In this document: in pieces, positions 1,190-28,743 of the stretch
Layout of the letters: each line of letters starts with the position of its first letter
Position numbering within the stretch: the first letter of the stretch is position 1
Source of the DNA: Candidatus Saccharimonadota bacterium
Lineage (GTDB): Bacteria; Patescibacteriota; Gracilibacteria; BD1-5; UBA6164
Assembly: GCA_965229705.1 (NCBI GenBank)
Contig: OZ245922.1
Location: 390,001 to 422,000 of the forward strand
Reading direction: 5' to 3'
DNA length: 32,000 nt
Made by a program: the position numbers and the translations under genes
Notes under the pieces: generated by a model
The model's database searches: none
What the model saw: the letters and a program-made list of their open reading frames with translations, nothing else
Told to the model about the DNA's origin: nothing

Positions 1190-4100
1190 CTAATTTCCTT
1201 TCATAGAATGAAATATTCCTTCAAAAAGAGGAAAGTGTTTCTCTCATGGGATATTTCTAAAAACATTTTTTCCTTTTCTCTCTGGATGTGGCATCATTCA
1301 AAGTATCCTTCCATCTGGACTCGTCAGTCCTGCAATAGCGTGATCTGAACCATTATACTCATCGGTTGGATTTCCTCTATAATCAACATATATCATTGGT
1401 ATCTGTCATTGCTGAGAGTACTGATCAAATCTTTGCTGTGGTATAACAACTCGTCATTCTCCGTGGGAAATAGGTATTGTATAATACTCTTGAAGATGAA
1501 CTTGACTCATTGCTGGAGAAAGAAGAGAACGAATCTCTAACTTTACCAGTTCTGTTTGATGACGCATACTGCTATTGAAAGTAAGCGTTTCGTCACTATG
1601 AGTGAGATAATCCTTTACTTTACCATTCTCAAAAACTCAGAGCTTTATCAGAGCCTGAAAACCATTACAGATACCCAGCGTCACGGTTCACTTTTTCTCA
1701 AGAAATGCTTGAAAACTCTCACGAATTTCAGAGGAACGCATGATATTTGCGATATATTTTGCACTTCCATCTGGCTCATCACCATTTGAGAATCCTCATG
1801 GAAATACCAGTAAATGAGTAGAGCTGAGTTTATCAGCAAAAGTTTTTCGTGATCTTTGAAAATTTTCTACTCCATGAAGTGTTTGAAATACAAATTCTTC
1901 TACCTCAAACCCCGCCTGCATCAAGGCGTGGCGTGTATCAAGCTCTGAATTTGTTCCCGGAAATACTGTTATAAGCGCTTTTGGTTTGCATGATAATATT
2001 TCTGAAGTATCGAGTTGTACTCTTTGTTGATAGCGGTGTATTACACTTTCTCCTTGCAGGAGAGTATTTGTATTCTCCGATGGAAAAACATTTTCTAACG
2101 CGCTACGAAGTATATTGTGAGCCTCATCAAGACTCAAGTTTTCGGTTTGATCCTTCCATGTCAGAAAGGGGTTTTCTTGTGTTTTTGCAATTTGGTATGT
2201 TTCGAGTCATTGTTCTTGCACTGTTTGAGGAGAAACTTCCAATACTATATCTCAGAGCAAAGGAGCATACAGAGTATCGTCATATTTTTCAAAATGCACT
2301 CCTATCTTATTTCCAAGTGACATATTTACTATAGCTCCGTAAACACCAGACTCTTCAACCACACTTGAAGAAAAAATACAGCCTGAAGATATGAGTTTTT
2401 GAATAGTGATAAGCATCTGCTTGTACGCATCAAAGTCTGGTAGACTTCCTTGCAGTTTTGGTATAGGAAAATGTAGTATAGCGTTTCCAGGCTGTTTCAA
2501 CTCTGCTGAGACAACATTTTTTGTTTCAAGAGGACAATTTGCAAAACTCACAATTGTAGGAGGAACATCTATTCTTTCTCCATTTTTTCCGATATGAGTA
2601 CCACTCATAGAGTCTTTTCCTCCTATTGCTGCAACCTTGAGTTTCAATAGCGCTTCAAGTGTTCCTAAGAGTCAAGCATATACTTCTCCCCACTTTTCGT
2701 CATCTGTAAGTTTTCAAAAATATTCTTGGAGACTCAGCCATGTCTTTTGGTGATCTCCTCAGAGAGCAACTATTTTTGAGAGAGATTCTATGATAGTGTA
2801 TATTCATCATACATAACTATTTTCTGAAAGGAGTTTTGGGTTGTAGGAAAATGTAGAAGCAATACCGGTAAGACTCTCTCTTCCATCAAAGCTAGGAATC
2901 TTTGAGACCATTCATACTTGTGGTGAGTTTTGGTATTTTCACCCATAAGGAGCAAGAATCGTCGATGCTCAGACACTGTTATCAAAATTTCCATGAAGTC
3001 ATTTCTGAGACGCATGAGAGAGAACACCAAGATGTTTTTTCAGAATTTTAGCATGAGAAACATCTTGCTGTTTAGCATATACTGGCGGGTAAAAAAATAA
3101 TACATCTCCCTTTATATCTATCTTTGCTTGAGCACTTCTCGGAGCGCCATTTGTGCTCAGAAATTTTCGAGAAAGATTTACGGTATCCTTTCATTGATAC
3201 GAAATACGAAGTCTTTCTTCTCTTGATGCTTTTCATTGACTCATTACTTCTCCAGCAACAAAGCCATGAATATTTTCTGCTCGAATCATATCAAGAACTT
3301 CATCACACTCATCAGCAGATACAATAATTGCCATGCGTTCTTGAGACTCTGAGAGAAGAAGTTCTATATCACTAAGTCATTGGTATTTCACATGTTTTGC
3401 CACTTCATCAAGAAAAATATGGACTCCTTCAGCAATTTCTCACAGCGCAACAGAAACACCTCCTGCTCAAAAATCATTTGATTTTTTCACTTTTTTTGTA
3501 AATGCACTATTGAGCATGAGTCGCTGCATCTTTCTTTCTTCTACAGGATTTCATTTTTGTACATGCGCTCCGAGCGTTTCATGTGAGACTTCTCATGAAG
3601 ATTTACTCGAAGTACTTGCTCCTCAAACACCATCTCTTCCTGTTGCTCATCAAAATACGATAATTTTGTCTCAATGCTTTGGTGATTCTCTTACCAAGTC
3701 TTCTTCTTTTACAGCTGCTAGCACATAACCACACTCAAATCTTTTTGCTGCGTACCCTGGATGAAAAAACTCACGAACTCTCCCTGTTGCGAGTCCTATT
3801 TGATTTCCATAACTACTATAACCAAGCATAGCTCCTATGGATATGGCTCTTTGAGAAAGTTTTTCAGATAGAGTTTCACTTATTGGTTCTGTTGGGTTTT
3901 TTGCACCACTCACCCTCATCGCTCAAAATGTAAAGCTTCGTCCACTGAGAGTATCACGGATAGCTCATCACAGACAAGTTGCTGCGCCTCAAAAAGGCTC
4001 AGTCTCTGTAGGAGAGTTATGTGTCTCGTTTTTAAACATGATAATCCAGTCTTCCGAACTACCATCTGAGAAATTTATAGGAGTTTTATAAGATGCCGCA

Positions 4101-5032
4101 TTATCTTCGAGAGAAAGATCAAGGGCATCAACTCCTTGAAATTCATGATCATCTCAAAGAAATCTTGCGCTTCAAGTAGCAAGTTCCATAAGAGTGTTTC
4201 ACGGTTTTCCATGTTGGGTGCTTTTTTCTTGAAATGTTTTATGAGCTTGTATCAGGCTCTGTTGAGTTGCTGACTTATTTTCACATAAGTGTACGTCGTT
4301 CATCTGTGTAAAAAAAGTACTATGACGGCAATGATCAGACCAGTAAGTATCTATGAGAAGTATTTCTGCTTTTGTTGGATCACGCTGTTCTTCCTTGAGG
4401 AAATACCCATGAACAAGTCGTATATCATCTACACTCAGAGAGAGCTCATGATCTTGTATACATTTCTGAAAACCTGCATCATCAGAAATATCTCTAAAAC
4501 CTGTTAAGAGTATATGATTTTCGGGTTCTTGAAGTGATCTTTCAAGTCTTATATCACTCAGTGAAGATTCTTGTTTTTCATTTGGGTTAATAAGAAAGCC
4601 TGTGATTTTTTTTCGTTCATCTCTTGAGAGATCTCTTGAGAATTGTATCACTTGCTTCACACGAACATGATGGTCTTTCCCTGTTTGAAGTGTGAGATTG
4701 TCTTTTACAGCTTGCAGGCGAGCATCAAATTGCCCTGCTTGAGACTCAATTACGACAGTGTTTTCTCTTGAACCTTTTTCTATATCTTCACGAGAAAGTA
4801 GTATATCAACTGGCGCTTCTGAAAAAACGGTACTCTTTGCAAGGCTTAGTTCATCATCGCTGAGATCAGAAACAATATAATGTTCATATACATGTATTTC
4901 TCAAAGATTTTTGAGACCAAGATTTCATTCAAGGCTTGTTTGTAAATGTTTTCAGAGATCAACAATATGTTGACGCTTTTGTACAAAAATTTCAGATATT
5001 TCTCAAGCTTGTGTAGAAGAGGAATTGAGCAT
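1190..5032 (-). CDS. purL: phosphoribosylformylglycinamidine synthase, single-chain large form (about 1280 aa)
   Basis: Track ORFs 1796-2137, 2252-2647, 3671-3919 and 4199-4660 share one minus frame. The gaps between them contain only TGA, no TAA/TAG. ATG is at 5032 and TAG at 1190-1192. Motifs seen: YWSDHCRHSTFFT, KVAAIGGKDSMSG, and a C-terminal amidotransferase region with GGFSNGDEPDGS (first G is TGA at 1796-1798), GICNGFQAL, SHGEG and MPHPER. Confidence 0.95.
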
Positions 5033-5084
5033 TACTTGAAAGTAATAAATATTATTTTTTAGAATATTTTTATAATCTATAAAT

Positions 5085-5121
5085 ATAAAAAAACAAAAAA
5101 AAGTATCTTCAAGAGATACTT
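5085..5121 (-). terminator. Rho-independent terminator downstream of ftsH
   Basis: 8-bp perfect hairpin AAGTATCT-TCAAG-AGATACTT (5101-5121). On the minus strand it is followed by a long T-run (plus-strand A-run 5087-5100). It lies between the ftsH stop (5302) and the purL start (5032). Confidence 0.6.
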
Positions 5122-5301
5122 TTGTGTTAAAAAGATGTGAAAATATAGGGAAGCACGGAAAAATAGGAAATGTGTAAAAACAAGTAGTTCAAGGAAAATG
5201 CAACTTGGCTGAAATAAGCGTACTCATTGTACGAGTTTGAAGACAATGTTGCACTTTGACGATGAAATACGAAGTTTTTCCGCATTTCCATAGCAAGAAA
5301 A

Positions 5302-7194
<1,893 letters not shown>

Positions 7195-7332
7195 TTGTAT
7201 TTTGTAAGATATGTATATATTTAGTTTAAAGATAGTCATTTTTGGAAAAATGTTGGTACATAGTATGAGAAAGATATATTTTTCAAAACATCATGAATTG
7301 ACAGTAGTAAAAAAATATATCTTGTATCTCAC

Positions 7333-7445
7333 TTAAGGAAGCTCTAAAAAAGACATTTTTGTTTTCTCGAGACCGGTCTCGAGTTACTTATTTCAAGGAC
7401 TTGAGACCGGTCTCTTATAAAAGATTTATCTCTTTTTAAGAAATA
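7333..7445 (+). repeat. family-A palindromic element, copy A1 (right arm degenerate)
   Basis: TTAAGGAAGCTCTAAAAAAG...TTTTCTCGAGACCGGTCTCGAGTTACTTATTTCAAGGACTTGAGACCGGTCTCTTA... The core is identical to copy A2 and reverse-complementary to A3 and A4. It is intergenic, between the 319-aa orphan stop and the ftsH start. Confidence 0.9.
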
Positions 7446-7506
7446 AGTAGTTCCATAGCTTTTTCAAGGTCTTTGTGAAAGATCATGCATGACGATGTTT
7501 TGCATC

Positions 7507-8466
7507 TTACGTCTTTGTTGAAGATTGCTTATTATCATCTATCTCACTTTCCTCTCAAGCTTGTAAGAGAGGTTGTTCTCGCATAAACAAGCTCGCATAA
7601 TTTTCTCTATTATTTTGCATTTTTTCGCTCATTTCTCTTCCAAAGTCCTTATATTTTTTCAAAAGATCAAGATATCAGAAATCTTTTATTACTTTTGGTA
7701 TTTCTGTATCTCAAGGAAAAAATAGTTGAGCATATATGAAAAAAATCATTTTCATTCTTATCGGAAGTTCTCAGTCGTCTATGATATTTTCTATAGCATA
7801 CCAGCTCTTTTCTGGAAGATACACAGATCACATACGATACTTCTCGAGAATCACTTGGGGAACTGCTACTCAATTTGCTATAAGCTCTGTACAAAGAAAC
7901 TTTCAAGCGTTTATATGACTTAAAGCGTTCATATTTCACCTAAAATCTTCCAGAAGTCTTTCTCAGATTTCAAATGAATCAACTTTTGATAACCAAGAAG
8001 TGATGTTTACCTCCGTAACATGATCTTTGAGTTTATGTTGTTCTATGAACTTATAAACTTGTTCAAGTGTTTTTCACTCTGTCATAGCAAAAATTACTGA
8101 GGAATCTGCATTATAACCAGAAAAAAACTCTTCAAATACACTATCACGATCTTCTTGGGTTTCTAGAAAATTGAGAATCCTTGTAAGTGTTGGGATAGAA
8201 AGTGTAATATTTTTTCTTCTTGCTTCAAGAATTATTGCCTCTATATCTATATCATGCAGATCTCTGTCAAATTTTGTAAAAATATAATAGTCTGATTCCA
8301 CCACATTTCTTACTTCTGCACAAATCTGTCGTATTTTATGATCTTTATGTCATTCTTTTCATTGTAAAATCGAAGAAATCTCAGCTTTTGTCGCTCACAA
8401 AAGCTCTTTAGGAATGGGAAGTCATAAATCCTCTGCACGGTCTATGTAAGATAATCTTCAATTCAT
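7507..8466 (-). CDS. hypothetical protein (319 aa), no recognisable family
   Basis: Walked codon by codon on the minus strand. ATG at 8466 is preceded by an in-frame TAA, and TAA is at 7507-7509. It contains many in-frame TGA codons. Sequence MNGRLSYIDRAEDLGLPIPKELLGATKAE...FAMTEGKTLEQVYKFIEQHK...NKQSSTKT. Track ORF 8074-8304 is an internal fragment. Confidence 0.7.
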
Positions 8467-8508
8467 AAGCGTCAATTACTCATTGATTTATTATAAATTC
8501 TCATAATA

Positions 8509-8630
8509 TTAAGAAGGCTCTGAAAAAAGGCATTTTTATTTTCTCGAGACCGGTCTCGAGTTACTTATTTCAAGGACTTGAGACCGGTCTCTTACACAGG
8601 ATTTTTCTATTTCTCAGAACTTCCTTTAGG
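8509..8630 (+). repeat. family-A palindromic element, copy A2 (complete)
   Basis: TTAAGAAGGCTCTGAAAAAAGG...TTCTCGAGACCGGTCTCGAGTTACTTATTTCAAGGACTTGAGACCGGTCTCTTACACAGGATTTTTCTATTTCTCAGAACTTCCTTTAGG. The outer arms are inverted repeats of each other. It is intergenic between divergent genes. Confidence 0.9.
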
Positions 8631-8686
8631 AAACTCTGAGAATAATTATACACAAAAAAGACATATATCAAGTAAAAAATAAATAA

Positions 8687-10402
8687 ATGCAACACCTCAA
8701 GATACATATAGAAAAACTTGAACTCTCTTGAGAACTTATTCTCAAAGATATTGCACTCACTATCAATAAGAATGATACTATTTCTATAGTATGACCAAAT
8801 GGTTCTGGAAAAACGACTTTTCTCAAAACATTGATTTGAGATATTGTAGAGTATCATGGTTATATAGAAAATGTCTGAAATATGAAGCTCTGATACCTTC
8901 AGCAAGTGTATGGGGATAACGAGGGAAAAACTGTTCATGAAGAGCTCAGAGATGCTTTTACAGAAATACTCACACTTGAGAAAAGAGTAAAAGAACTAGA
9001 AGAAGAAATATGAGAAAATCATAGTCTCATAGCTGAATATACTGAACTGCTAGAAAGATGTAATAATATTTGAGGATATGATTATGAACATACTATCCAC
9101 TCAGTAAGTCAGTGAATATGAATACTTCATCTATTAGAAAAAAAACTCAGCGAAATATCATGATGACAACGAGCAAAGGTTGCTCTGGCAAAAGTTCTTT
9201 TGGAATCTCCTGATATGCTCTTTCTTGATGAACCTACAAATTTTGTTGATATGGCAAGTGTTCAGTGGCTTGAGTGATACCTCAAACATAAATGGAAATG
9301 ATGATATGTTATTGTGTCTCATGATAGAGAATTTCTTGATACAACCTGCCAAAAAACTCTTGAAATCCAACCACAAAGATCAGCAACTATGTATCACACA
9401 AATTATAGTGAGTATGTTATCGAAAGAGAAAAAAGAGAAAAAAAGAAACTCGATGAATATGAAAGACAAGAAGAGTATATTTGAAAACAAAACCAGCTTA
9501 TCAATCGTTTTCGAGCATGATCGAGAGCAGGTTGGGCAAAAAGTCGAGAGAAAATGATAGAAAAAATGGATAAGCTTGAAAAACCCTTTATCCCAAAAAA
9601 AACAAAATTTTTCTTTGATTATTTATGAGAATCACCAGAAAAACTACTAACATATAAAGAGGCTTTTATTGGAAGAAAAAAAGCATCTCCCCTTTTTTTT
9701 ATTCAAGAGATTATCCTGCATAAATGAATGCGCGTCTGAGTTGTATGAGAAAATGGTGTTGGAAAATCAACATTTATCAAAACTATTCTTGGTCATATTC
9801 CCCTACTTGATGGATATCAGTCATTGTGAAAATCTACCAAGATTGTATACTATTCACAAATGCATGAGGAACTCAAGACACATCTTTCTATGCGAGATAA
9901 TTTTCATCAGCATGGCATATGTCTCCCCGATGAACACTTGACAGCTCTGATAAAACATTATCTTTTTGAAAAAGAAGACCTAGATAAAAAAGTCTGTGAA
10001 CTTTCATGAGGACAAAAAAGTAAGTTCTTGTTTTGTATTCTAGGTCAAAAACCGGCAAATCTCTTGGTACTTGATGAACCAACAAATCATCTTGACTACG
10101 ATACGCGGGAATCTCTCGAGTATGCTTTGAGTCAATATGAGTGAAGTATCCTCTTCATTTCTCATGACAGGTATTTTGTGAATAAGCTTGCCAGTCATAT
10201 TTGGTTTATAGACAATGCTGAACTCTCGCTTTCATATGGAAACTATGAAGACTATCGTTTTAAAAAAGAACATCGTCTTGATATGGATATGCATATTTTT
10301 GATGAGCAAGCAGAACTCAATCTTGTACTTGAAGAAAAGCTCTGAGAAAAAGAATTTAAGCGTCTCAAAGAAAAGTTTGGGAAGAAAAAGAAGAGAAAGT
10401 AA
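8687..10402 (+). CDS. ABC-F family ATPase (two ABC domains, no TM; translation-factor/ribosome-associated type), 571 aa
   Basis: The frame is open from ATG 8687 (an in-frame TAA lies immediately upstream) to TAA 10400-10402, checked line by line. Two Walker A motifs are present ([18 protein letters not shown]). Two ABC signatures are present: LSGGQRAK with GG encoded by TGA TGA at 9161-9166, and LSGGQKSK with TGA at 10007-10009. A charged linker and a K-rich tail complete the protein. Confidence 0.93.
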
Positions 10403-10801: not shown

Positions 10802-10877
10802 GGATTCATAGCTCAGTTGGTAGAGCACTCGCCTCTTAAGCGATAGGTCCCGAGTTCGAGCCTCGGTGAATCCACCA
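10802..10877 (+). tRNA. tRNA-Lys (anticodon CTT), CCA encoded
   Basis: Cloverleaf read by hand: acceptor GGATTCA/TGAATCC, D arm GCTC-AGTTGGTA-GAGC, anticodon loop CTCTTAA, T arm CCGAG-TTCGAGC-CTCGG, then A + CCA. Confidence 0.92.
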
Positions 10878-13187: not shown

Positions 13188-13294
13188 TTAAGGAAGCTCT
13201 GAAAAACAAAAATTTTCTAATCCTCTCTGGCTCTATCGAGCTATCTCTCCTTTGGAAAAGGAGAGAAAAAAGGAGTTTCTCAAAGTTTCCTTAA
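13188..13294 (+). repeat. family-B palindromic element, copy B1
   Basis: TTAAGGAAGCTCTGAAAAACAAAAATTTTCTAATCCTCTCTGGCTCTATCGAGCTATCTCTCCTTTGGAAAAGGAGAGAAAAAAGGAGTTTCTCAAAGTTTCCTTAA. The termini match family A. The core matches copy B2. Confidence 0.88.
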
Positions 13295-13333: not shown

Positions 13334-14023
13334 ATGCCTTCAAACAATCCCTACATCAAACTCGTGCAAGAAGATAGAGATATTTTTGATATTCCCCATA
13401 ACGCTACAAAATACCGATGACAATGGAGCACCTCCTACTTTTGCAACACTCATCCTCTCATACTCGAGATAGGTACTGGAATGGGAAATTTCTTTTCTTC
13501 TCAGGTATGAAAACACCCTCAAAAAAACTTCATCGGTATGGAAGTACGCTATAAAAGATGCTACCAAACTGCTGAAAAATCTCGAAAGATGCAAATTCAT
13601 TCCTCTCCATGAGAAAAAAATACCTCAGAAAAAAAGCCAAACTTTTGTATTATTAAAGAATTTGCCCAAAAAATACCAGAAATATTTGCTCCCCAAGAAC
13701 TCTCAGAAACATACATATTTTTTCCAGATCCCTGGGCAAATAAGGCAAGACAAAAAAAACATCGCCTCCTGCAAGCAACTTTTCTCAAAGAACTCCATAC
13801 TCTCACTAAAAAATGATGAAAACTCTTTTATAAAACTGATCACCGAGAATACTTTGAAAGTACTGTTAGTATAATAGAAGAGCAACAACTCTGGCATATA
13901 GTGCAGAAAATATTCTGCTATGAAACATCATCACATTTTAATGTAGAACATATTACCGAATTTGAAGGATTGTATAGAGGAGAACAAACCAGTATTCACT
14001 ATCTTGAACTTGTAAAGATATAA
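13334..14023 (+). CDS. trmB: tRNA (guanine46-N7)-methyltransferase (229 aa)
   Basis: The frame is open from ATG 13334 to TAA 14021-14023 (checked). Motifs seen: LEIGTGMGNF (SAM binding), FFPDPWANKARQKKHRL, and GGKLFYKTDHREYF. Confidence 0.9.
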
Positions 14024-14049: not shown

Positions 14050-14171
14050 TTCTTTCAGAAGCCTCTGAGAAATAGAAAATCTTGTGTAAGATACCGGTCT
14101 CAAGCCCTTGAAATAAGTAACTCAAGACCGGTCTCGAGAAAACAAAAAGGACTTTCTCAGAGCTTGTGAAC
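14050..14171 (-). repeat. family-A palindromic element, copy A3 (inverted orientation)
   Basis: ...CTCTGAGAAATAGAAAATCTTGTGTAAGATACCGGTCTCAAGCCCTTGAAATAAGTAACTCAAGACCGGTCTCGAGAAAACAAAAAGGACTTTCTCAGAGCTT... is the reverse complement of the A2 layout. It is intergenic between trmB and mscS. Confidence 0.9.
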
Positions 14172-14189: not shown

Positions 14190-15035
14190 ATGCTACAAGA
14201 TATTCTCTGAGACCTTGATATACAAAAATACTCTGAAATCATTTCAACAAATATTATTAGCTTTAGTGGAAAACTCCTTGGGGCTATTTTGGTTTTATGG
14301 ATTGGATTTAAGATCGTAGGATTTATTACCCACTCTCTCCAAAAATATTTTGAAAAAGCAGATTTTGATCCGACTGTAGAACAGTTTATCATCAATCTTC
14401 TCAAGTACACGCTCAAGATTCTTGTGTGTTTTACCGCTATTTGACTCATGTGAGTGCAGATGACTAGCTTTGTGGCGCTTATGGCAGCAGCAGGTTTTGC
14501 TATAGGTGGAGCACTCTCTGGAACACTCTCACATTTTGCAAGCGGTATCGTCATACTTGTCTTTCGTCCTTTTAAGGTATGAGACTTCGTAGAGCTTAAT
14601 GGAACAGCAGGAACAGTCAGCGACGTGTCGATATTTAGTACGACTCTCACAATGATAGATACAAAACTAGCTATCATTCCAAACTCAGACGCTATTTCCG
14701 GAACGATGATGAACTATTCTACCGAACCAATACGAAGAATAGATCTCCCTATCGGTATCTCATATAGTGATGATATAGACCTTGCGAGAAAGACTCTTTT
14801 AAAGATTATCAAAAAAGATCCCAGAGTCCTCCAAGACGAATCCCAACAAGTAGTAGTAAAAGAGCTTGGCGATAGCGCGGTAACCCTTGGCCTGAGATTT
14901 TGGACGAAAAACGAAGATTATTGGCAGCTTCGTTTTGATCTCTTAGAGACTATTAAAAAGGAGTTTGATAAGACTCAGGGGAAGTTGAACTTCCCTTTTC
15001 CTCAAAGAGATATTCATCTCTATCAGGAGCAATAA
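14190..15035 (+). CDS. mscS: small-conductance mechanosensitive channel (281 aa)
   Basis: ATG 14190 to TAA 15033-15035, frame checked. The N-terminal TM helices include TGA = Gly codons. The segment [51 protein letters not shown] is the typical MscS TM3/beta-domain junction. Track ORF 14625-15035 is the C-terminal part. Confidence 0.9.
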
Positions 15036-16383: not shown

Positions 16384-16412
16384 GTTTGTATAGTTATTGT
16401 GTATTTGCTTAA

Positions 16413-16609
16413 ATTCCTATCTTGAATTCTTTTCTCGCTCCCTTCCTTTTTTGCTAAAAGGAAGGGGTGGGGATGGAATAAGTGTATCAATTCCTATCTT
16501 GAATTCTTTCCTTTGCTCTCAAAGGAAAGAGGCTGCAGGCTTTCTATCAAGTTTTGAGCCCTCCTCCTTTTTTGTTAAAAGGAGGAGATTCAGAGGTGGA
16601 ATAAGTAAG
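16413..16609 (-). repeat. family-C multi-hairpin element, short unit plus long unit, inverted orientation
   Basis: 16489-16609 is the reverse complement of the long unit at 27667-27793 and 28591-28717 (about 95 percent identical by eye). 16413-16488 is the reverse complement of the short unit type. It fills the gap between the 476-aa gene start and the ligA stop. Confidence 0.9.
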
Positions 16610-16624
16610 ATGTCTGTGTATTTC

Positions 16625-18703
<2,079 letters not shown>

Positions 18704-19557: not shown

Positions 19558-19634
19558 TTGTTTGAGTTTTAGTGAAATACTCTTCTATTTCTCCATAAAA
19601 TCCATATGATATACTCTGTTACTCTCAAACAACT

Positions 19635-20654
19635 ATGAAACAAGAAATACACAAACTCTGACAACTCATACACACATCTCAAAAAATCCTTCTCATAAAT
19701 CATGCACGAATGGATGGAGATGCCTGGTGATCGCTCTGATGACTCGCACTCATACTCAAAAATATGGAAAAAACTGTTGCCTGTATCAACGATGATCCTG
19801 TACCAGAACATTTTTCCTTTCTCGGACAACAAGAGCTCATAACACCAGAACTCAATGTCGCAGACTTTGCTCCTGATATCATCATATCCCTTGACGCAGC
19901 TGACCTTGCGAGACTTTGAGAAAGCTACAAAAAGTGGGAAAGCATTTTTCAGAAAACTCCTTTCATCGTTATTGATCATCATATATCAAACCACGGGTTT
20001 GGAGATATAAATATTATAGACCCTCAAGCAAGCTCCGTATGCGAACTCCTCGTTGATATCATTACAGAACTCTCTCTTGAAAAGTATATCACTCCTCAGA
20101 TAGCAACATTTCTCTACACTGGCTTGCAAACTGATAGCAATATGTATTTCAATACCAATACCCGATCAAATACCCTGAGAACTGGAGCAAAACTCATAGA
20201 CCTCTGAGCAGATTTTCGTCTTCCTATTATGCACTGTTATAAACAACGTACACAAAATCAAATTCGTTTTTGGCAGTATGCTTTTGAGCATATGAGTTAT
20301 CACTACAGTGGAAAAGTATGCTACTGCAACCTCCCCATCAACTGACTCAGAGAACTCTGAATTGCTCGAGAAGAAATGGGATGATATTTTAAGGGACTTG
20401 TTTGAGAAATACTGATAAACATTCAAGGAGTATCTATTGCCTTTCTCCTCCAACCCCTTTGAGAGGGTCGAATAAAAGTATCTATGAGAAGTCAAGAGTG
20501 ATATGATGTCAATCAGATTTGTGAACAATTTTGATGATGATGACATACACAAGCTGCAGGATTTGAGACAGAAGATACTCCAGAAAATATAGAACAACAA
20601 TTGCTTACTATAATATCTGAAACATACGATTTTTCAGCATGAATCAAAAAGTAA
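19635..20654 (+). CDS. nrnA: DHH/DHHA1 phosphoesterase, NrnA-like (oligoribonuclease/pAp phosphatase family), 339 aa
   Basis: The frame was checked codon by codon from ATG 19635 to TAA 20652-20654. Motifs seen: INHARMDGDAWGSLGG, DAAD, VIDHHISN, and DHHA1 FGGGGHTQAAGF, in which the four Gly are four consecutive TGA codons (20532-20543). Confidence 0.88.
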
Positions 20655-22448: not shown

Positions 22449-24389
22449 ATGAATATTACCAAAATCCTGCTTTGCGTTCTATTTTTCATACTTCCTTTTA
22501 TCCATGGGAAAATATTTTTTCAGTTTTGAATACCTCTATATTTTCCTGTAGACGGAAACTATGAGTTCACGAAGAGTATTTTTTTTCATATTTTCTCAAG
22601 CCTGATATATATAGTGTTTATTTGAGAATCTCTTCTCAATTCTTTTTTTTGTAAAAGCAAAGAACATACAAAATATTTTTCGCAAATTTTTTCTATACAG
22701 GCAATTGGCTGAAAAAGTAATACACCTCATTTTCAAGTATGAAAAATTATCTCTATATTTCTGATAATCCTCTCAATATCAACCTATTTCTCTCTCTCCC
22801 CTTTCATCTCACTCATCTGAGACACAGAAAAATGACATACAACGCTTCTCTTTGTTCATCTTGTATGAATATTTCTCATACTACGAAGTCTTGAGAAAGA
22901 GTTCTTGCAAAGACTCATATATATCACGATTTTTTCATGTTGTATTGTCAGTGTCATTGCGATAAAAGAATTATTTTTTCCTGTTTTCGATTATGGGGAG
23001 CTGTCAAGTAGGGCACTATGAACTCTTGGACACCCAAACTATCTTGCTGGATATATATTGATAATCCTTCCTCTTGTGTTTCATGCAAAACTCCCCTCTC
23101 TTATAAAAGGGGGGCTTGGGACTGTGTTAATATGAACTATCATACTTACGCAGTCTATTGTCGCGGTATTTCTCACTTTTTGCTATTTCGCGTATTTTTT
23201 TATGGCTCATATTTTTAGAAGAGGTTCCTTAAGAAAGTTCTGAAAAATAAAAAAATCTTGAGTAAGAGACTGGTCTCAAGCCCTTAAAATAAGTAACTCG
23301 AGACCGGTCTCAAAAAATAAAAGCGCTTTTTCCAGAGATTTTTTAAAGCGTTGGTGGACTCAAATATGAATATATATTCTTATCATACTTACTTTGTGTC
23401 TTTGTCTCTTACTCATACAATATTTTCCAGAAAAACTCCACTCATTTCTTTCACGTTTTAGTATTTGGGAGACAACTCTCAGGATTATTTTCTCAGATAT
23501 ACACATATTATTTTTCTGAGCAGGTCTTGAGACACTTCCCTACTTTTTTGAAAGTTTCAAGAGTCCTGAGATGTATATTTATGAAAATTTTTGATACACT
23601 GCCGATAGACCTCACAATTTCTTGCTCAATATTTTGTATCATTTAGGGATTCTTTGAGGAGTTTTTTTCTGATATTTGTTCTACCTCTTTTGCAAAAACT
23701 ACAAAAACACTCCAGAAAATCATGCGATGATACTCTTTTTATTATTCTGAATATTTCATTTTTTTTCAGTAGTAAGTTATATCGTTTTTATACTCATACT
23801 GAGTTACTCCTTACTCTCACTAAAAACCTTACCTCTCAATCTCCACTCCTCAAAAGAGAAGAGGGATGTAAATCATATTTTATGAATATGTGTATTCACA
23901 ATAATTACTGTCTTATCTTTTTTTTGATCATATTCTTCTTTTCTCCTCTATAGAGCAGAAATTCTTTATGAACAACAAAAATATCATCTAGCTCAAAAAA
24001 CTTTTTCTCATCCAAAATATCTCATAGAAATATGAAAATACCAACAAGCCGAACAAAGAGAATGAATCCTCTCTCAGTATAACCTCAAAAATCAGCTGAT
24101 AACCAAAGAAGATAAAGTCTCTTTATGTAAATATCTCACTCGTGCGTATCCTGCAGCGGAAAATTACTTATATTGTGGAAATATTCTTGAACGTATCGGG
24201 GAAAAAAATCTTTCTCTTGAGTATTATAGGCTATGACTCTTGGAACTTCCTGATCTTTGGAATCAAGATTCTCGATATTGGAAAAACTATTTTATACGAG
24301 AAACTATAAGCGGAAATAGGTTTTTTTCGGAAAAATTTTGAGATATTTGATGAGTTGTAGAAAAAGTATATAATCACAAAAATTACTAA
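22449..24389 (+). CDS. O-antigen-ligase/Wzy_C-like polytopic membrane protein with a C-terminal TPR-like region (646 aa), carrying an in-frame family-A element
   Basis: ATG 22449 to TAA 24387-24389. All 647 codons were read and there is no TAA/TAG. The N-terminal half has LGTLGHPNYLAGYILIILPLVF. The C-terminal half has FFGAGLETLPYF...ADRPHNFLLNILYHLGILGGVFF (Wzy_C-type signature). The two halves are in one frame across repeat copy A4. Confidence 0.8.
23223..23348 (-). repeat. family-A palindromic element, copy A4, located inside a CDS
   Basis: GGTTCCTTAAGAAAGTTCTGAAAAATAAAAAAATCTTGAGTAAGAGACTGGTCTCAAGCCCTTAAAATAAGTAACTCGAGACCGGTCTCAAAAAATAAAAGCGCTTTTTCCAGAGATTTTTTAAAG is collinear with A3. 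In the host frame it translates as RRGSLRKFGKIKKSGVRDWSQALKISNSRPVSKNKSAFSRDFLK. Confidence 0.9.
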
Positions 24390-24399
24390 TCTCATTTTT

Positions 24400-24813
24400 A
24401 TGTATAACTGGTCCATTATTTCTCAAATACTCAAAGAGGTTGAAAAAAAAGATATACTCAATACGCAAAGAATAAAAGATTCTGACAATGCTGATGTCTT
24501 TAGAAAATATATAAAATCAGATATATTCTTTGATGAAATTTCCAGTGAAATACAAGAAGTAAAAGATGAAAATAAAAAAAACAACTCTGTATATCTTGAG
24601 GATGAGCTCTGAGATATTTTTTGGGATTATATCAATCTCTTATACTTTTTGGAAAAAGAGAATAAAATATCTCTTGAAAGAGTATTTGAAAGGTGTTTAA
24701 GAAAATATAGTGATCGTATTTCTGCTTTAGAAAATTGAGTATTGTGGGAAGATATAAAAAAGCAGCAAAAAGAATCTCTCGCGAAAGAACATAAACAAAA
24801 ATATGAACTTTAA
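24400..24813 (+). CDS. MazG-like nucleotide pyrophosphohydrolase (137 aa), tentative family call
   Basis: ATG 24400 to TAA 24811-24813 with two in-frame TGA codons. The acidic helix pattern DEISSEIQEV...LEDELGDIFWDYINLLYFLEKENKISLERVFERCLRKYSDRI resembles the small MazG/YpjD fold (ExxE...ELGD). Confidence 0.6.
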
Positions 24814-24914
24814 AAAACTTCTGAAAAATACAAACTCCCTAATCCTCTCTGGCTCTACCAAACCATCCCTCCTTTGTAAAACGAGAGAAAAAGGACTTTC
24901 TCAGAGTTTCCTTT
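24810..24914 (+). repeat. family-B palindromic element, copy B2
   Basis: TTTAAAAAACTTCTGAAAAATACAAACTCCCTAATCCTCTCTGGCTCTACCAAACCATCCCTCCTTTGTAAAACGAGAGAAAAAGGACTTTCTCAGAGTTTCCTTTT is collinear with B1. Its left terminus overlaps the MazG-like stop codon. Confidence 0.88.
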
Positions 24915-24931
24915 TGTAAGAAATAGGCTAT

Positions 24932-27207: not shown

Positions 27208-27564
27208 ATGAAACACTTTTTGATACTTTGTATAGTTTTGCTTATTATTTCATCTTGTTCTTCTGATATACAAGAAAAAGAAAATTGAGATAAAGATACT
27301 CCTAGCTTTGATATTCTAAAGAAACCTATTTTAGAAAAAAATACCTTGAGGCAAGATGATGTATATCAATCTTTTATATGAATGACGAAGCAAGAAGCAG
27401 TAGAGTATGCTCAAGAAAACAATATAAAATTTCGTATTGGAAAAGAAGATAATAAGGCTTATATGCTCACGATGGATTATGTTGTTTGAAGAGCAACGGC
27501 AACTCTTAAAGATGGAAGAGTCATAGGTCTGAATATTGAATGAAGAAAAAGTATCCTTGAATAA
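27208..27564 (+). CDS. small lipoprotein (118 aa); the mature domain loosely resembles the peptidase-inhibitor I78 fold family
   Basis: ATG 27208 to TAA 27562-27564. The signal peptide MKHFLILCIVLLIISSC carries a lipobox. The segment FRIGKEDNKAYMLTMDYVVGRATATLKDGRVIGLNIEG fits the pattern; this family guess is tentative. Confidence 0.72.
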
Positions 27565-27819
27565 AAATACAAAAATATTTTACTTATTTCACCTCTGAAT
27601 CTCCTCCTTTTAACAAAAAAGGAAGGGAGCGAGAAAGGAATTCAAGATAGGAATGGAGAAAACATATTACTTATTCCACCTCTGAATCTCCTCCTTTTAA
27701 CAAAAAAGGAGGAGGGCTCAAAACTTGATAGAAAGTCTGTAGCTTCTTTCCTTTGAGACCAAAGGAAAGAATTCAAGATAGGAATTGAGAAAATATTTGT
27801 CCGAAATGACAGAAAACTA
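27563..27819 (+). repeat. family-C element: short unit (27579-27654) plus long unit (27667-27793) plus a shared 26-nt flank, ending 5 nt before tRNA-Ser
   Basis: The long unit is TTACTTATTCCACCTCTGAATCTCCTCCTTTTAACAAAAAAGGAGGAGGGCTCAAAACTTGATAGAAAGTCTGTAGCTTCTTTCCTTTGAGACCAAAGGAAAGAATTCAAGATAGGAATTGAGAAAA. It has two perfect hairpins (CTCCTCCTTTT/AAAAGGAGGAG and CTTTCCTTTG/CAAAGGAAAG). Confidence 0.9.
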
Positions 27820-27824
27820 CTTCT

Positions 27825-27917
27825 GGAAGGGTGGCTCGAGTGGTTGAAGGCGCGCGCTTGGAAAGCGTGTAAGTTGGATTTCCGGCTTCGCGGGTTCGAA
27901 TCCCGTCCCTTCCTCCA
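27825..27917 (+). tRNA. tRNA-Ser (anticodon GGA), long variable arm, CCA encoded
   Basis: Acceptor GGAAGGG/CCCTTCC, anticodon stem CGCGC/GCGTG with loop TTGGAAA, long variable arm, T arm with GGTTCGAATCC, then T + CCA. Confidence 0.9.
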
Positions 27918-27979
27918 GTTTATATTATATAGGACGGATGAGAAGTTTATACCTGAAAGGTTAATCCCGTCCCTACCCA

Positions 27980-28043
27980 ACTCTTCCTTTTAGCAAAAAA
28001 GGAAGGGAGAAATGAAGCAATTCAAGATAGGAATTGAGAAAAC
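27980..28043 (+). repeat. family-C element, truncated short unit
   Basis: CTCTTCCTTTTAGCAAAAAAGGAAGGGAGAAATGAAGCAATTCAAGATAGGAATTGAGAAAAC. It shares the hairpin and the GAATTCAAGATAGGAAT terminus of family C. Confidence 0.8.
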
Positions 28044-28573: not shown

Positions 28574-28743
28574 AAAAATACAAAAATATTTTACTTATTC
28601 CACCTCTGAATCTCCTCCTTTTAACAAAAAAGGAGGAGGGCTCAAAACTTAATAGAAAGTCTGTAGCCTCTTTCCTTTGAGATCAAAGGAAAGAATTCAA
28701 GATAGGAATTGAAAAAACATTTGTCCGAAATGACAGGAAACTA
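28574..28743 (+). repeat. family-C element, long unit plus the same 26-nt flank that precedes tRNA-Ser
   Basis: 28591-28743 differs from 27667-27819 at 6 of 153 positions (my count). The 5-prime leader AAAAATACAAAAATATTT matches the leader of the short unit at 27563. Confidence 0.92.

What the first reader, a model, noticed from the sequence alone, without database searches (positions are those of the whole stretch)
7333..8630. Family A: about 120-nt nested-palindrome element built around twin GAGACCGGTCTC 12-mers
There are four copies: 7333-7445, 8509-8630, 14050-14171 (inverted) and 23223-23348 (inverted). All share one layout:
- outer inverted arms (TT)AAGGAAGCTCTGAGAAA ... TTTCTCAGAGCTTCCTT(AA);
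- a core with two copies of the perfectly self-complementary GAGACCGGTCTC (one extended to the 18-nt palindrome CTCGAGACCGGTCTCGAG);
- the spacer GTTACTTATTTCAAGG between them.
The core can fold as two short hairpins or one long one, and the outer arms close a third helix. Several copies are bounded by TTAA. No transposase is present in the window, so this is a non-autonomous MITE/REP-like family, or alternatively a repeated operator or structured RNA.
Basis: seen in the sequence. Interest (0 to 1): 0.7.

Follow-up and report, generated by a model that had tools for sequence, protein, structure and literature searches.

The report
IS5-type MITE carrying twin palindromes
The four ~120-nt repeats are decaying miniature transposons (MITEs) of an IS5-family insertion sequence in a bacterium that reads TGA as glycine; one sits in-frame inside a membrane-protein gene, and their twin-palindrome core also turns up, unexplained, inside housekeeping genes of other bacteria.

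Summary
Four copies share the stated layout, far above chance.

The "outer arms" are the terminal inverted repeats (TIRs) of an IS5-family insertion sequence. A sister-strain contig carries a ~1.2-kb element ending TTAA|GGAGCCTCTGAAAAACAC…GTGTTTCTCAGAGTTTCC|TTAA. It encodes a 325-aa IS5 transposase (NF033581, 290 bits). A second family in the window (B) uses the same TIRs around a different core.

TTAA is the duplicated target, as expected for IS5 (YTAR). Strain comparison shows presence/absence and core-swap polymorphisms.

The window has no transposase, the source genome shows no intact one, and its copies are degenerate.

Two corrections. Copy 1's supposed right arm is flanking DNA. Copy 4 is not intergenic: it is a 114-nt in-frame insertion in a Wzy_C-type gene, tolerated partly because TGA codes for Gly (code 25).

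Unexpectedly, the pair GAGACCGGTCTC–N~22–GAGACCGGTCTC, with unrelated spacers and no IS5 TIRs, occurs in about 45 other metagenomic loci. It often lies in-frame in housekeeping genes (DnaE, MutL, UvrC, Mfd, Tkt, TrpA). That module is unexplained and is the interesting part.

The parts
7333..7426 (+). Family A copy 1. TTAA 7333-7336, TIR 7337-7351, 12-mers at 7369-7380 and 7403-7414. The far end is truncated or degenerate. It lies upstream of ftsH (5302-7239, minus strand).
   Evidence: The sister strain L006 lacks window 7339-7426 and keeps only TTAAGGAGCagcc at that site.
8509..8628 (+). Family A copy 2. TTAA 8509-8512, TIR 8513-8527, 12-mers at 8546-8557 and 8580-8591, right TIR 8610-8624, TTTA 8625-8628. 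It lies between the divergent genes hyp (7507-8466, minus) and ABC-F (8687-10402, plus).
   Evidence: In L006 the left TIR is identical and orthologous, but the core is Family B.
8629..8643 (+). Solo IS5-type TIR (GGAAACTCTGAGAAT), back-to-back with the right TIR of copy 2. The same abutting arrangement is seen at the MITE/IS junction L007 482-515.
14050..14171 (-). Family A copy 3. TIRs at 14058-14072 and 14153-14167 are degenerate and the TTAA flanks are lost. 12-mers at 14090-14101 and 14124-14135 each carry one mismatch. It lies between trmB-like (13334-14023, plus) and mscS (14190-15035, plus).
   Evidence: It is conserved at the orthologous site of the sister strain (L007 13818-13975).
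23229..23346 (-). Family A copy 4. TTAA at both ends, 12-mers at 23266-23277 (one mismatch) and 23300-23311. It is a net 114-nt (38-codon) in-frame insertion in the Wzy_C-like gene.
   Evidence: The Wzy_C score rises from 21.1 to 33.3 bits after in-silico excision, and the match becomes colinear.
22449..24389 (+). Host gene of copy 4: a 646-aa polytopic membrane protein with a Wzy_C (O-antigen ligase-like) domain, read with code 25.
13188..13294 (.). Family B copy 1. Same TTAA + TIR ends (TIRs 13192-13206 and 13276-13290) but a different hairpin core.
   Evidence: (D4).
24810..24915 (.). Family B copy 2. The right TIR 24897-24911 is 17/17 identical to the right end of the IS.
   Evidence: (D4). 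It is conserved in the sister strain (L008 1243-1337).

Best explanation

How it works (inferred): the DDE transposase of a resident ~1.2-kb IS5-family insertion sequence recognises these repeats in trans. It cuts the element out and pastes it into TTAA sites, duplicating the TTAA.

Family B is a sibling MITE with the same ends and another core.

In the window's genome the elements look orphaned and are decaying:
- the TIRs are mutated;
- one copy has lost an end;
- one copy has lost its TTAA flanks;
- no transposase is in the window, and no intact one is detected on the source contig.

The sister strain still carries the IS, next to a Family A copy with a perfect TIR.

The nested palindrome is a consequence of the anatomy (TIRs plus a palindromic core), not evidence of an RNA or operator function.

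Copy 4 landed in a loop of a Wzy_C-type membrane-protein gene and persists as an in-frame 38-codon insertion. It has no TAA or TAG in that frame, and its two TGA codons read as Gly under code 25.

What is shown and what is inferred:
- Shown: TIR identity with the IS, the IS5 classification, the TTAA flanks, the strain polymorphism and the in-frame insertion.
- Inferred: actual trans-mobilisation by that transposase.
For: 1. TIR match. The L007 IS (~1999-3214) ends TTAA|GGAGCCTCTGAAAAACAC ... GTGTTTCTCAGAGTTTCC|TTAA. The only IS-to-window DNA similarity is these TIRs: 20 nt at 95% and 17 nt at 100%.
2. Transposase. 325 aa with DUF772 + DDE_Tnp_1. NCBIfam IS5 family NF033581 scores 289.7 bits against a cut-off of 140. 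It has 10 in-frame TGA codons, so it is native to a code-25 host.
3. Independent IS copy. The transposase in L009 is 80% identical, and the element has the same TTAA|GGAATCTCTGAGAAAC ... TTTCTCAGAGGTTCC|TTAA ends.
4. Named relative. ISXfu1 ends CTAA|GGAAACTCTGAACAA ... |CTAA; its left TIR is 13/15 identical to ours.
5. Target duplication.
   - Nearly all intact IS, A and B ends are preceded by TTAA.
   - Removing the L009 IS plus one TTAA restores a 170-codon ORF with a plausible product.
   - Removing copy 4 plus one TTAA keeps the frame and makes the Wzy_C match colinear and above threshold.
   - IS5 duplicates 5'-YTAR-3', which includes TTAA (PMC5009759).
6. Dispersal and polymorphism.
   - An extra Family A copy lies at a non-syntenic locus, abutting an IS and sharing a TTAA with it (L007 381-500).
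   - Copy 1 is absent from L006.
   - A Family B copy is present in L006 at a site that is empty in the window.
   - Relatives at ~80% FtsH identity keep the synteny but have no element and shorter intergenic regions.
7. Precedent. IS5-family-derived MITEs that share TIRs with resident ISs are documented (PMC4596501).
Against: - No full-length homolog of the transposase (top 120 hits, down to ~48% identity) sits on the 1,006,762-bp source contig. Current mobility in this genome is therefore unsupported.
- No perfectly clean empty site (a single TTAA) was found for a Family A copy. The copy 1 site in L006 keeps a TIR stub, and the Family B empty site in the window reads TTCTTTTTTGCAAGAA rather than TTAA.
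- At the copy 2 site, an identical orthologous TIR flanks a Family A core in one strain and a Family B core in the other. Simple cut-and-paste does not explain this.
- The core module exists without IS5 TIRs in other lineages, so part of the element has a separate history.
- Only ~81 kb of this species could be examined, so genome-wide copy number is unknown.
Confidence: 0.85

Rival explanations
1. REP/REPIN-type element. The twin palindromes are a REP doublet mobilised as single-stranded hairpins by a RAYT (IS200/IS605-like HUH tyrosine transposase). The IS5-like arms would be incidental.
For: - Two copies of a palindrome in a larger hairpin is REPIN-like anatomy.
- The twin-palindrome module occurs without IS5 TIRs in other genomes. 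It is mostly extragenic between convergent genes in the standard-code bacteria.
Against: - In this species the 12-mers occur only inside TIR-bounded Family A copies.
- Copies carry TTAA duplications and IS5 TIRs.
- There is no GTAG/CGTC head (sequence).
- No Y1/HUH transposase was seen in any fetched locus (gene tables).
- Identical REP sequences across phyla would be atypical (own knowledge).
Confidence: 0.05
2. Cis-regulatory DNA. The two 12-bp palindromes, 34 bp centre to centre, are paired operators for a dimeric DNA-binding protein, repeated in front of a regulon.
For: - A perfect 12-bp palindrome is a classic dimer site, and the spacing is constrained at ~34 bp in many lineages.
- Copy 2 lies in a divergent promoter region (gene map).
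Against: - Copies lie downstream of, between and inside genes, with no consistent position relative to starts.
- The whole 110-nt unit, including the spacer and TIRs, is repeated, which operators do not need.
- The 12-mers are decaying in this species: 3 of 8 in the window and 3 of 4 in L007 carry a mismatch.
- The flanking genes are unrelated housekeeping functions.
Confidence: 0.03
3. Structured RNA or transcription terminator. The element is transcribed and acts as an sRNA, an RNA stability element or an intrinsic terminator.
For: - The fold is strong (z -3 to -5).
- One strand carries CTCGAGACCGGTCTCGAG followed by TTACTTATTT, which the terminator scan picks up (3 sites found against 0.4 expected).
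- MITEs elsewhere can act as terminators or sRNA sources (PMC10969869).
Against: - There is no Rfam match.
- The mismatches in the 12-mers are not compensated.
- In all three co-directional contexts (copies 1, 3, 4) the terminator-like strand is antisense to transcription.
- Any such effect would be a by-product of a MITE rather than an alternative to it.
Confidence: 0.05

Closest known systems
MITEs derived from IS5-family insertion sequences (e.g. Porphyromonas gingivalis BrickBuilt/MITE293/MITE700 with ISPg elements; Neisseria ATR with ISNme1; PMC4596501)
   Same: - Short non-coding elements whose TIRs match those of a resident IS5-family IS.
- No transposase remnant inside.
- Several families share one set of TIRs.
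- Nesting or abutting of elements.
   Different: - New sequence family: no DNA match in plasmid, phage, GTDB-representative, JGI metagenome or IMG/VR collections.
- The host is a code-25 Gracilibacteria-type bacterium.
- The TTAA duplication is clean, whereas the TSDs reported for BrickBuilt are irregular.
- The core is a twin-palindrome module with a life of its own elsewhere.
IS5 group of the IS5 family (IS5, ISXfu1)
   Same: For the partner IS:
- ~1.2 kb with a single DDE_Tnp_1 transposase matching NF033581.
- TIRs starting GGAA; the ISXfu1 left TIR is 13/15 identical.
- A 4-bp YTAR target duplication.
   Different: - The transposase is only ~41% identical to ISXfu1.
- The target seen so far is always TTAA.
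- The gene uses TGA as a sense codon.
Rickettsia palindromic elements (RPEs) and intragenic ERIC elements (PMC10969869)
   Same: A palindromic repeat inserted in-frame into a protein-coding gene and apparently tolerated as extra peptide. This applies to copy 4, and to the 16-aa xRPVS...ETGL modules in other genomes.
   Different: - No sequence relationship.
- Only one of the four window copies is intragenic.
- Here the open frame depends partly on TGA being a sense codon.
- Translation and function of the host protein are untested.
REPINs / BIMEs (REP doublets mobilised by RAYTs)
   Same: Two copies of a short palindrome separated by a spacer, folding into a long hairpin, dispersed mostly outside genes.
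   Different: - Family A has DDE-type TIRs and TTAA duplications.
- There is no GTAG/CGTC head.
- No RAYT was seen.
- The 12-mer is identical across distant lineages, unlike species-specific REPs.
Optional G+C-rich palindromic clusters of yeast mitochondrial DNA (e.g. the 46-bp clusters in var1); comparison from my own knowledge, not checked against a paper here
   Same: Short GC-rich palindromic insertions in a very AT-rich genome that can sit in-frame in coding sequence. This resembles the 46-49-nt twin-palindrome modules in the 22-26% GC code-25 contigs.
   Different: - Bacterial rather than mitochondrial.
- Different sequence.
- The mechanism is unknown in both cases.
- This is an analogy only.

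Membership tests
Bacterial MITE | Small size (tens to a few hundred bp) and no transposase coding capacity | tested here: met
   Copies are 110-120 nt. There is no similarity to the transposase gene (tblastn).
Bacterial MITE | Terminal inverted repeats | tested here: met
   GGAAnCTCTGAGAAA is present at both ends of copies 2, 3 and 4, the L007 copy, and Family B. Copy 1 retains only one end.
Bacterial MITE | TIRs shared with an autonomous IS in the same lineage | tested here: met
   The IS5-family IS in the sister strain (L007) and in L009 carries the same TIRs. An intact copy in the source genome itself was not detected.
Bacterial MITE | Target-site duplication | tested here: met
   TTAA flanks most intact ends. 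Two excision tests (copy 4 in Wzy_C; the IS in L009) require element + 4 bp. No single-TTAA empty site for a Family A copy was available.
Bacterial MITE | Multiple dispersed copies with presence/absence polymorphism | tested here: met
   Four copies in the window plus one non-syntenic copy in L007. Copy 1 and one Family B site differ between strains. Genome-wide copy number was not obtainable.
Bacterial MITE | Mobilisation in trans by the cognate transposase | not testable with these tools
   Needs a transposition or binding assay.
IS5 family (partner element) | DDE_Tnp_1 transposase matching the curated IS5 model | tested here: met
   NF033581 scores 289.7 bits against a cut-off of 140. Pfam finds DUF772 + DDE_Tnp_1.
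IS5 family (partner element) | 4-bp YTAR target duplication | tested here: met
   TTAA at both ends of three IS copies. The ORF is restored after removing the IS + 4 bp. The motif is from PMC5009759.
REP/REPIN (RAYT-mobilised) | Conserved GTAG/CGTC head on an imperfect palindrome, and an associated RAYT gene | tested here: not met
   No GTAG/CGTC head adjoins the palindromes. No Y1/HUH transposase appears in the gene tables of any fetched locus. The complete genome was not available.
Intrinsic terminator | GC-rich hairpin followed by a T-tract on the transcribed strand, downstream of a gene | tested here: not met
   The hairpin + T-tract is present on one strand. That strand is antisense to transcription in the three co-directional contexts, and one copy is inside a gene.
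Any Rfam RNA family | Covariance-model match at the gathering score | tested here: not met
   Only two tRNAs match in the window. Sub-threshold hits at the element are noise.
Rickettsia palindromic elements | Membership of one of the RPE sequence families, and in-frame insertion | tested here: inconclusive
   In-frame insertion is met for copy 4. Sequence membership was not tested against RPE consensus sequences; it is an analogy only.

The most novel reading that the evidence does not exclude
The core of Family A (GAGACCGGTCTC, ~22 nt, GAGACCGGTCTC) may be more than filler. It may be one instance of an independent, undescribed mini palindromic insertion module (46-49 nt), which an IS5-type MITE captured and amplified in this species.

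Where it occurs elsewhere:
- The same 12-mer pair, with free spacer sequence and no IS5 TIRs, occurs at about 45 loci in metagenomes. Far fewer than one is expected by chance.
- In 22-26% GC code-25 bacteria the 12-mers are almost always perfect.
- All 10 intragenic modules from the perfect-pair scan sit in one codon phase, adding x-RPVS-(7-8 aa)-ETGL to DnaE (three times), MutL, UvrC, Mfd, Tkt, TrpA (in two related genomes) and Fmt. A second MutL module has one imperfect 12-mer.
- In a 42% GC standard-code bacterium the module sits in MnmA and RmlD, overlaps the FolP stop codon, or lies between convergent genes.
- Orthologous sites keep the palindromes while the spacer flips and diverges.

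This implies a sequence-specific factor that inserts or maintains the palindromes: a recombinase, a nuclease or a DNA/RNA-binding protein. It has not been identified.
Probability: 0.4. Interest if true: 0.75.

Novelty: new member of a known kind. Interest (0 to 1): 0.5.

Why it matters
As a MITE, the finding is ordinary biology in an unusual host. It documents active or recently active IS5-type transposition, MITE families and strain-level insertion polymorphism in a TGA=Gly (code 25) Gracilibacteria-type genome. I found no paper describing MITEs there.

Two aspects go further:

1. **In-frame insertion under code 25.** A MITE sits in-frame in a Wzy_C-type gene, and two of its codons would be stops under the standard code. 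This suggests that stop-codon reassignment widens the set of insertions a gene can survive.
2. **The twin-palindrome core beyond this species.** It recurs with invariant 12-mers inside replication, repair and metabolic genes of other AT-rich code-25 bacteria and of at least one standard-code lineage. If it is a mobile or actively maintained element, it would be a bacterial counterpart of Rickettsia RPEs or mitochondrial GC clusters, with an unknown mechanism. It would also be a practical annotation hazard in these poorly studied genomes.

Tried and rejected
**Searches that found nothing**
- The exact 25-mer of the Family A spacer found nothing in the GTDB representative genomes, JGI metagenomes or IMG/VR. 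blastn of copy 2 found nothing in plasmids or phages.
- The source contig could not be fetched: exact look-ups of a TGA-free ORF and of the code-4 FtsH record failed.
- There is no Rfam match.
- No Family A backbone lacking the palindrome module exists in ~81 kb of this species, so 'capture' remains an inference.
- No paper mentions the 12-mer in a relevant context, and none pairs Gracilibacteria with MITEs.

**Candidates rejected**
- The window ORF 19569-20546(-), which has the same length as the L007 transposase, is not a transposase. Its translation is junk and tblastn is negative.

**Orthologs of the Wzy-like host gene**
- The genome-collection scan gave no relative.
- Synteny near LigA in the nearest relative was not conserved.
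- The representative-protein search refuses code-25 translations.
- I used in-silico excision against Pfam instead.

**Ideas for the twin-palindrome module that I considered and dropped**
- Excision by a BsaI-like type IIS enzyme. The 4-nt stretches at the predicted cut positions are inverted rather than direct repeats (flanks).
- The 12-mer as a duplicated target of a Cas1-like integration. This would need a pre-existing GC-rich 12-mer in each gene, which is implausible at 22% GC.
- A shared spacer consensus linking all loci. The window's spacer is no more similar to the others than shuffled controls are (p~0.22).
- Sequencing adapter or assembly artefact. This is incompatible with all 10 intragenic modules sharing one codon phase and preserving reading frames.
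Full report
**1. Context**

Under the standard code the window has no ORF longer than 233 aa. Reading TGA as sense raises the maximum to 1379 aa and restores a normal gene map. TGA accounts for up to 15 of 17 Gly codons in individual genes.

TGA falls on invariant glycines of FtsH. The database copy of this protein, translated with code 4, reads HEVWHA and WWGHDERE where FtsH has HEVGHA and GGGHDERE. The genome therefore uses code 25 (TGA=Gly), and the nearest named relatives are 'Candidatus Gracilibacteria'.

The source is a 1,006,762-bp contig held by NCBI/ENA that I could not retrieve.

Gene map used below:

| Gene | Coordinates | Strand |
|---|---|---|
| purL | 1190-5227 | - |
| ftsH | 5302-7239 | - |
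| hyp | 7507-8466 | - |
| ABC-F | 8687-10402 | + |
| trmB-like | 13334-14023 | + |
| mscS | 14190-15035 | + |
| ligA | 16625-18703 | - |
| Wzy_C-like | 22449-24389 | + |

**2.

- The 12-mer GAGACCGGTCTC (up to 1 mismatch) occurs 8 times, two per claimed copy, against 0.01 expected.
- The four copies align over ~120 nt at 81-91% identity and are recovered by a profile at E<=5e-39.
- The arm motif occurs 9 times against 0.31 expected.
- As single strands, the two 12-mers pair with each other and the arms close an outer helix in intact copies (z -3 to -5).
- There is no Rfam match.

**3. The arms are IS5-family terminal inverted repeats**

The same arms bound a second repeat family with a different core: Family B at 13188-13294 and 24810-24915.

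A sister strain (ENA ERZ25074195) is 95-99% identical to the window across most shared genes; the hyp gene is 87% identical. It was reached through the 90%-identity clusters of the window's own proteins.

On its contig L007, a ~1.2-kb element at ~1999-3214 reads TTAA|GGAGCCTCTGAAAAACAC ... GTGTTTCTCAGAGTTTCC|TTAA. It encodes a 325-aa protein with DUF772 + DDE_Tnp_1 domains. The protein matches the curated IS5-family model NF033581 at 289.7 bits against a cut-off of 140, and it has ten in-frame TGA codons.

Further support:
- A second, disrupted copy of the IS lies at L007 497-1951. A Family A copy with a perfect TIR (381-500) abuts it, sharing one TTAA.
- An independent sample holds an IS whose transposase is 80% identical, with the same TTAA|GGAATCTCTGAGAAAC ... 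TTTCTCAGAGGTTCC|TTAA ends (L009).
- The nearest named element, ISXfu1 of Xanthomonas (41% identity), ends CTAA|GGAAACTCTGAACAA ... |CTAA. Its left TIR is 13/15 identical to ours.
- The only DNA similarity between the IS and the window is the TIRs.

**4. TTAA is a target duplication**

- Nearly all intact ends of the IS, Family A and Family B are preceded by TTAA.
- In L009, removing the IS plus one TTAA restores an uninterrupted 170-codon frame. Its product looks like a secreted metalloprotease (signal-like N-terminus, HESWH). The alternative reconstruction is open only on the strand that gives a junk translation.
- For copy 4, see section 6.
- IS5 itself duplicates 5'-YTAR-3', which includes TTAA (PMC5009759).

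**5. Dispersal and polymorphism**

Relatives at ~80% FtsH identity keep the ABC-F / hyp / ftsH synteny. They have no element, no arm motif above noise, and shorter intergenic regions.

Between the window and the sister strain:
- Copy 3, B1 and B2 are conserved at orthologous sites.
- Copy 1 (window 7339-7426) is replaced in L006 by about 10 nt next to a TIR stub, TTAAGGAGC.
- L006 has a Family B copy at a site that is empty in the window (~10640), although the empty site is not a clean TTAA.
- At the copy 2 site the left TIR (TTAAGAAGGCTCTGAAAAA, a rare variant) is identical in both strains. Yet the core is Family A in the window and Family B in L006, and the window has an additional solo TIR at 8629-8643. 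This core exchange is not explained by simple cut-and-paste. Recombination between MITEs through their shared ends, or rearrangement of abutting elements, is possible but untested.

The window contains no transposase remnant. No full-length homolog down to ~48% identity is recorded on the source contig. The window's copies have 2-4 TIR mismatches, a lost end (copy 1) or lost TTAA flanks (copy 3). In this genome they therefore look like orphaned, decaying MITEs.

**6. Copy 4 is inside a gene**

The frame 22449-24389 is open through the element. Both sides encode a polytopic membrane protein.

The distance between the two TTAAs gives a net insertion of 114 nt, or 38 codons. In that frame there is no TAA or TAG, and there are two TGA (=Gly) codons.

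| Construct | Wzy_C score | Residues matched | Profile positions |
|---|---|---|---|
| With element | 21.1 bits (below threshold) | 230-407 | 9-148 |
| After removing element + one TTAA | 33.3 bits (above the 31.7 gathering score) | 227-369 | 6-148 |

After excision the match is colinear. This resembles the in-frame insertions of Rickettsia RPEs and ERIC elements (PMC10969869). Whether the protein is still made and functional is unknown.

**7. Side effects on expression**

One strand of Family A carries CTCGAGACCGGTCTCGAG followed by TTACTTATTT, which a terminator scan reports. In the three co-directional contexts (copies 1, 3, 4) that strand is antisense to transcription. This is consistent with selection against the terminating orientation, but n=3.

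**8. The twin-palindrome core has a life outside this MITE**

The pattern GAGACCGGTCTC-N(15-30)-GAGACCGGTCTC hits 50 metagenomic contigs, where far fewer than one is expected by chance. None has this window's spacer or the IS5 TIRs.

*Group 1: 21-26% GC, code 25.*
- These contigs use code 25: TGA is 4.18% of codons and GGN 2.37%.
- Of 18 perfect-pair modules, 8 are intergenic and 10 lie in long ORFs.
- All 10 are in the same codon phase and encode x-RPVS-(7-8 aa)-ETGL.
- The hosts are transketolase, UvrC, DNA polymerase III alpha (three modules), Mfd, MutL, TrpA (in two related genomes) and Fmt. MutL also carries a second module with one imperfect 12-mer.
- Removing the 16 residues from TrpA raises its Pfam score from 193.4 to 205.5 bits and makes the match colinear. 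Fmt is ambiguous.
- The 12-mers there are almost always perfect, and some pairs bracket 53- or 75-nt spacers.
- At an orthologous TrpA site in two related genomes, the flanks are 94.7% identical and the palindromes are identical. The spacer is 45% identical in the direct orientation and 73% when inverted. This suggests loop flipping in a hairpin plus fast turnover.

*Group 2: about 42% GC, standard code.* The module lies in-frame in MnmA and RmlD, overlaps the FolP stop codon, or lies between convergent genes.

*Group 3: about 57% GC, human gut.* One locus carries it downstream of an XRE-type gene.

Spacers form subfamilies but share no universal consensus. The window's spacer is not significantly like any other.

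In the window's species the 12-mers occur only inside Family A. They are decaying there: 3 of 8 in the window and 3 of 4 in L007 carry a mismatch.

The simplest reading is that Family A is an IS5-type MITE backbone that carries one such module as cargo. What inserts or maintains the module elsewhere is unknown. No paper mentions the sequence in a relevant context.

**9. Verdict**

- The finding is real.
- It is a new family of a known kind.
- The in-frame copy under code 25, and especially the cross-lineage twin-palindrome module, are what would deserve follow-up.

Noticed in passing
whole window: The genome uses genetic code 25 (TGA=Gly). Standard-code ORFs are all under 234 aa. TGA sits on invariant glycines of FtsH (HExGH, GGGHDERE). 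Public protein records of this genome were translated with code 4, so they carry Trp at every such position.
   Followed up: yes
window 16402-16628, 27563-27819, 27970-28043, 28574-28743: A third, hairpin-rich repeat family ('C') without IS5-type TIRs. Copy number and arrangement differ in the sister strain: L007 10727-10968 and 11347-11564 flank a DUF559 gene absent from the window, and L008 5971-6785 also differs. One block abuts the tRNA gene at 27825-27914.
   Followed up: partly
window 8509-8643 versus L006 3575-3681: At one orthologous site the two strains share an identical, rare TIR variant, but they carry different cores (Family A versus Family B). The window also has an extra solo TIR. 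This core exchange between MITE families is unexplained.
   Followed up: partly
L013-L060 (metagenome contigs), e.g. L038 2189-2234, 4781-4826, 5744-5789: Twin GAGACCGGTCTC modules with free ~22-nt spacers sit in-frame in housekeeping genes of 21-26% GC code-25 bacteria: DnaE (three), MutL (two), UvrC, Mfd, Tkt, TrpA and Fmt. All 10 from the perfect-pair scan share one codon phase (xRPVS...ETGL). The module also occurs in MnmA and RmlD, and overlaps the FolP stop codon, in a 42% GC standard-code bacterium.
   Followed up: partly
L034 3744-3789 versus L041 206-251: At orthologous TrpA sites the flanks are 94.7% identical and the palindromes identical. The 22-nt spacer is 45% identical in the direct orientation and 73% when inverted, which suggests hairpin-loop inversion and rapid spacer turnover.
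   Followed up: partly
window ~19560 versus L007 1-7794: Synteny with the sister strain breaks here. Beyond the break the sister strain carries two IS5 copies (one disrupted by IS3-like ORFs) and a ClpB-like gene that are absent from the window.
   Followed up: no
window 10802-10874 and 27825-27914: Two tRNA genes (Rfam RF00005). Both lie next to repeat-bearing intergenic regions: the Family B polymorphic site at ~10640, and Family C.
   Followed up: no
window 7366-7393 and 8543-8570 (+ strand): A terminator-like hairpin plus T-tract lies inside Family A on one strand only. In copies 1, 3 and 4 that strand is antisense to the surrounding transcription.
   Followed up: partly
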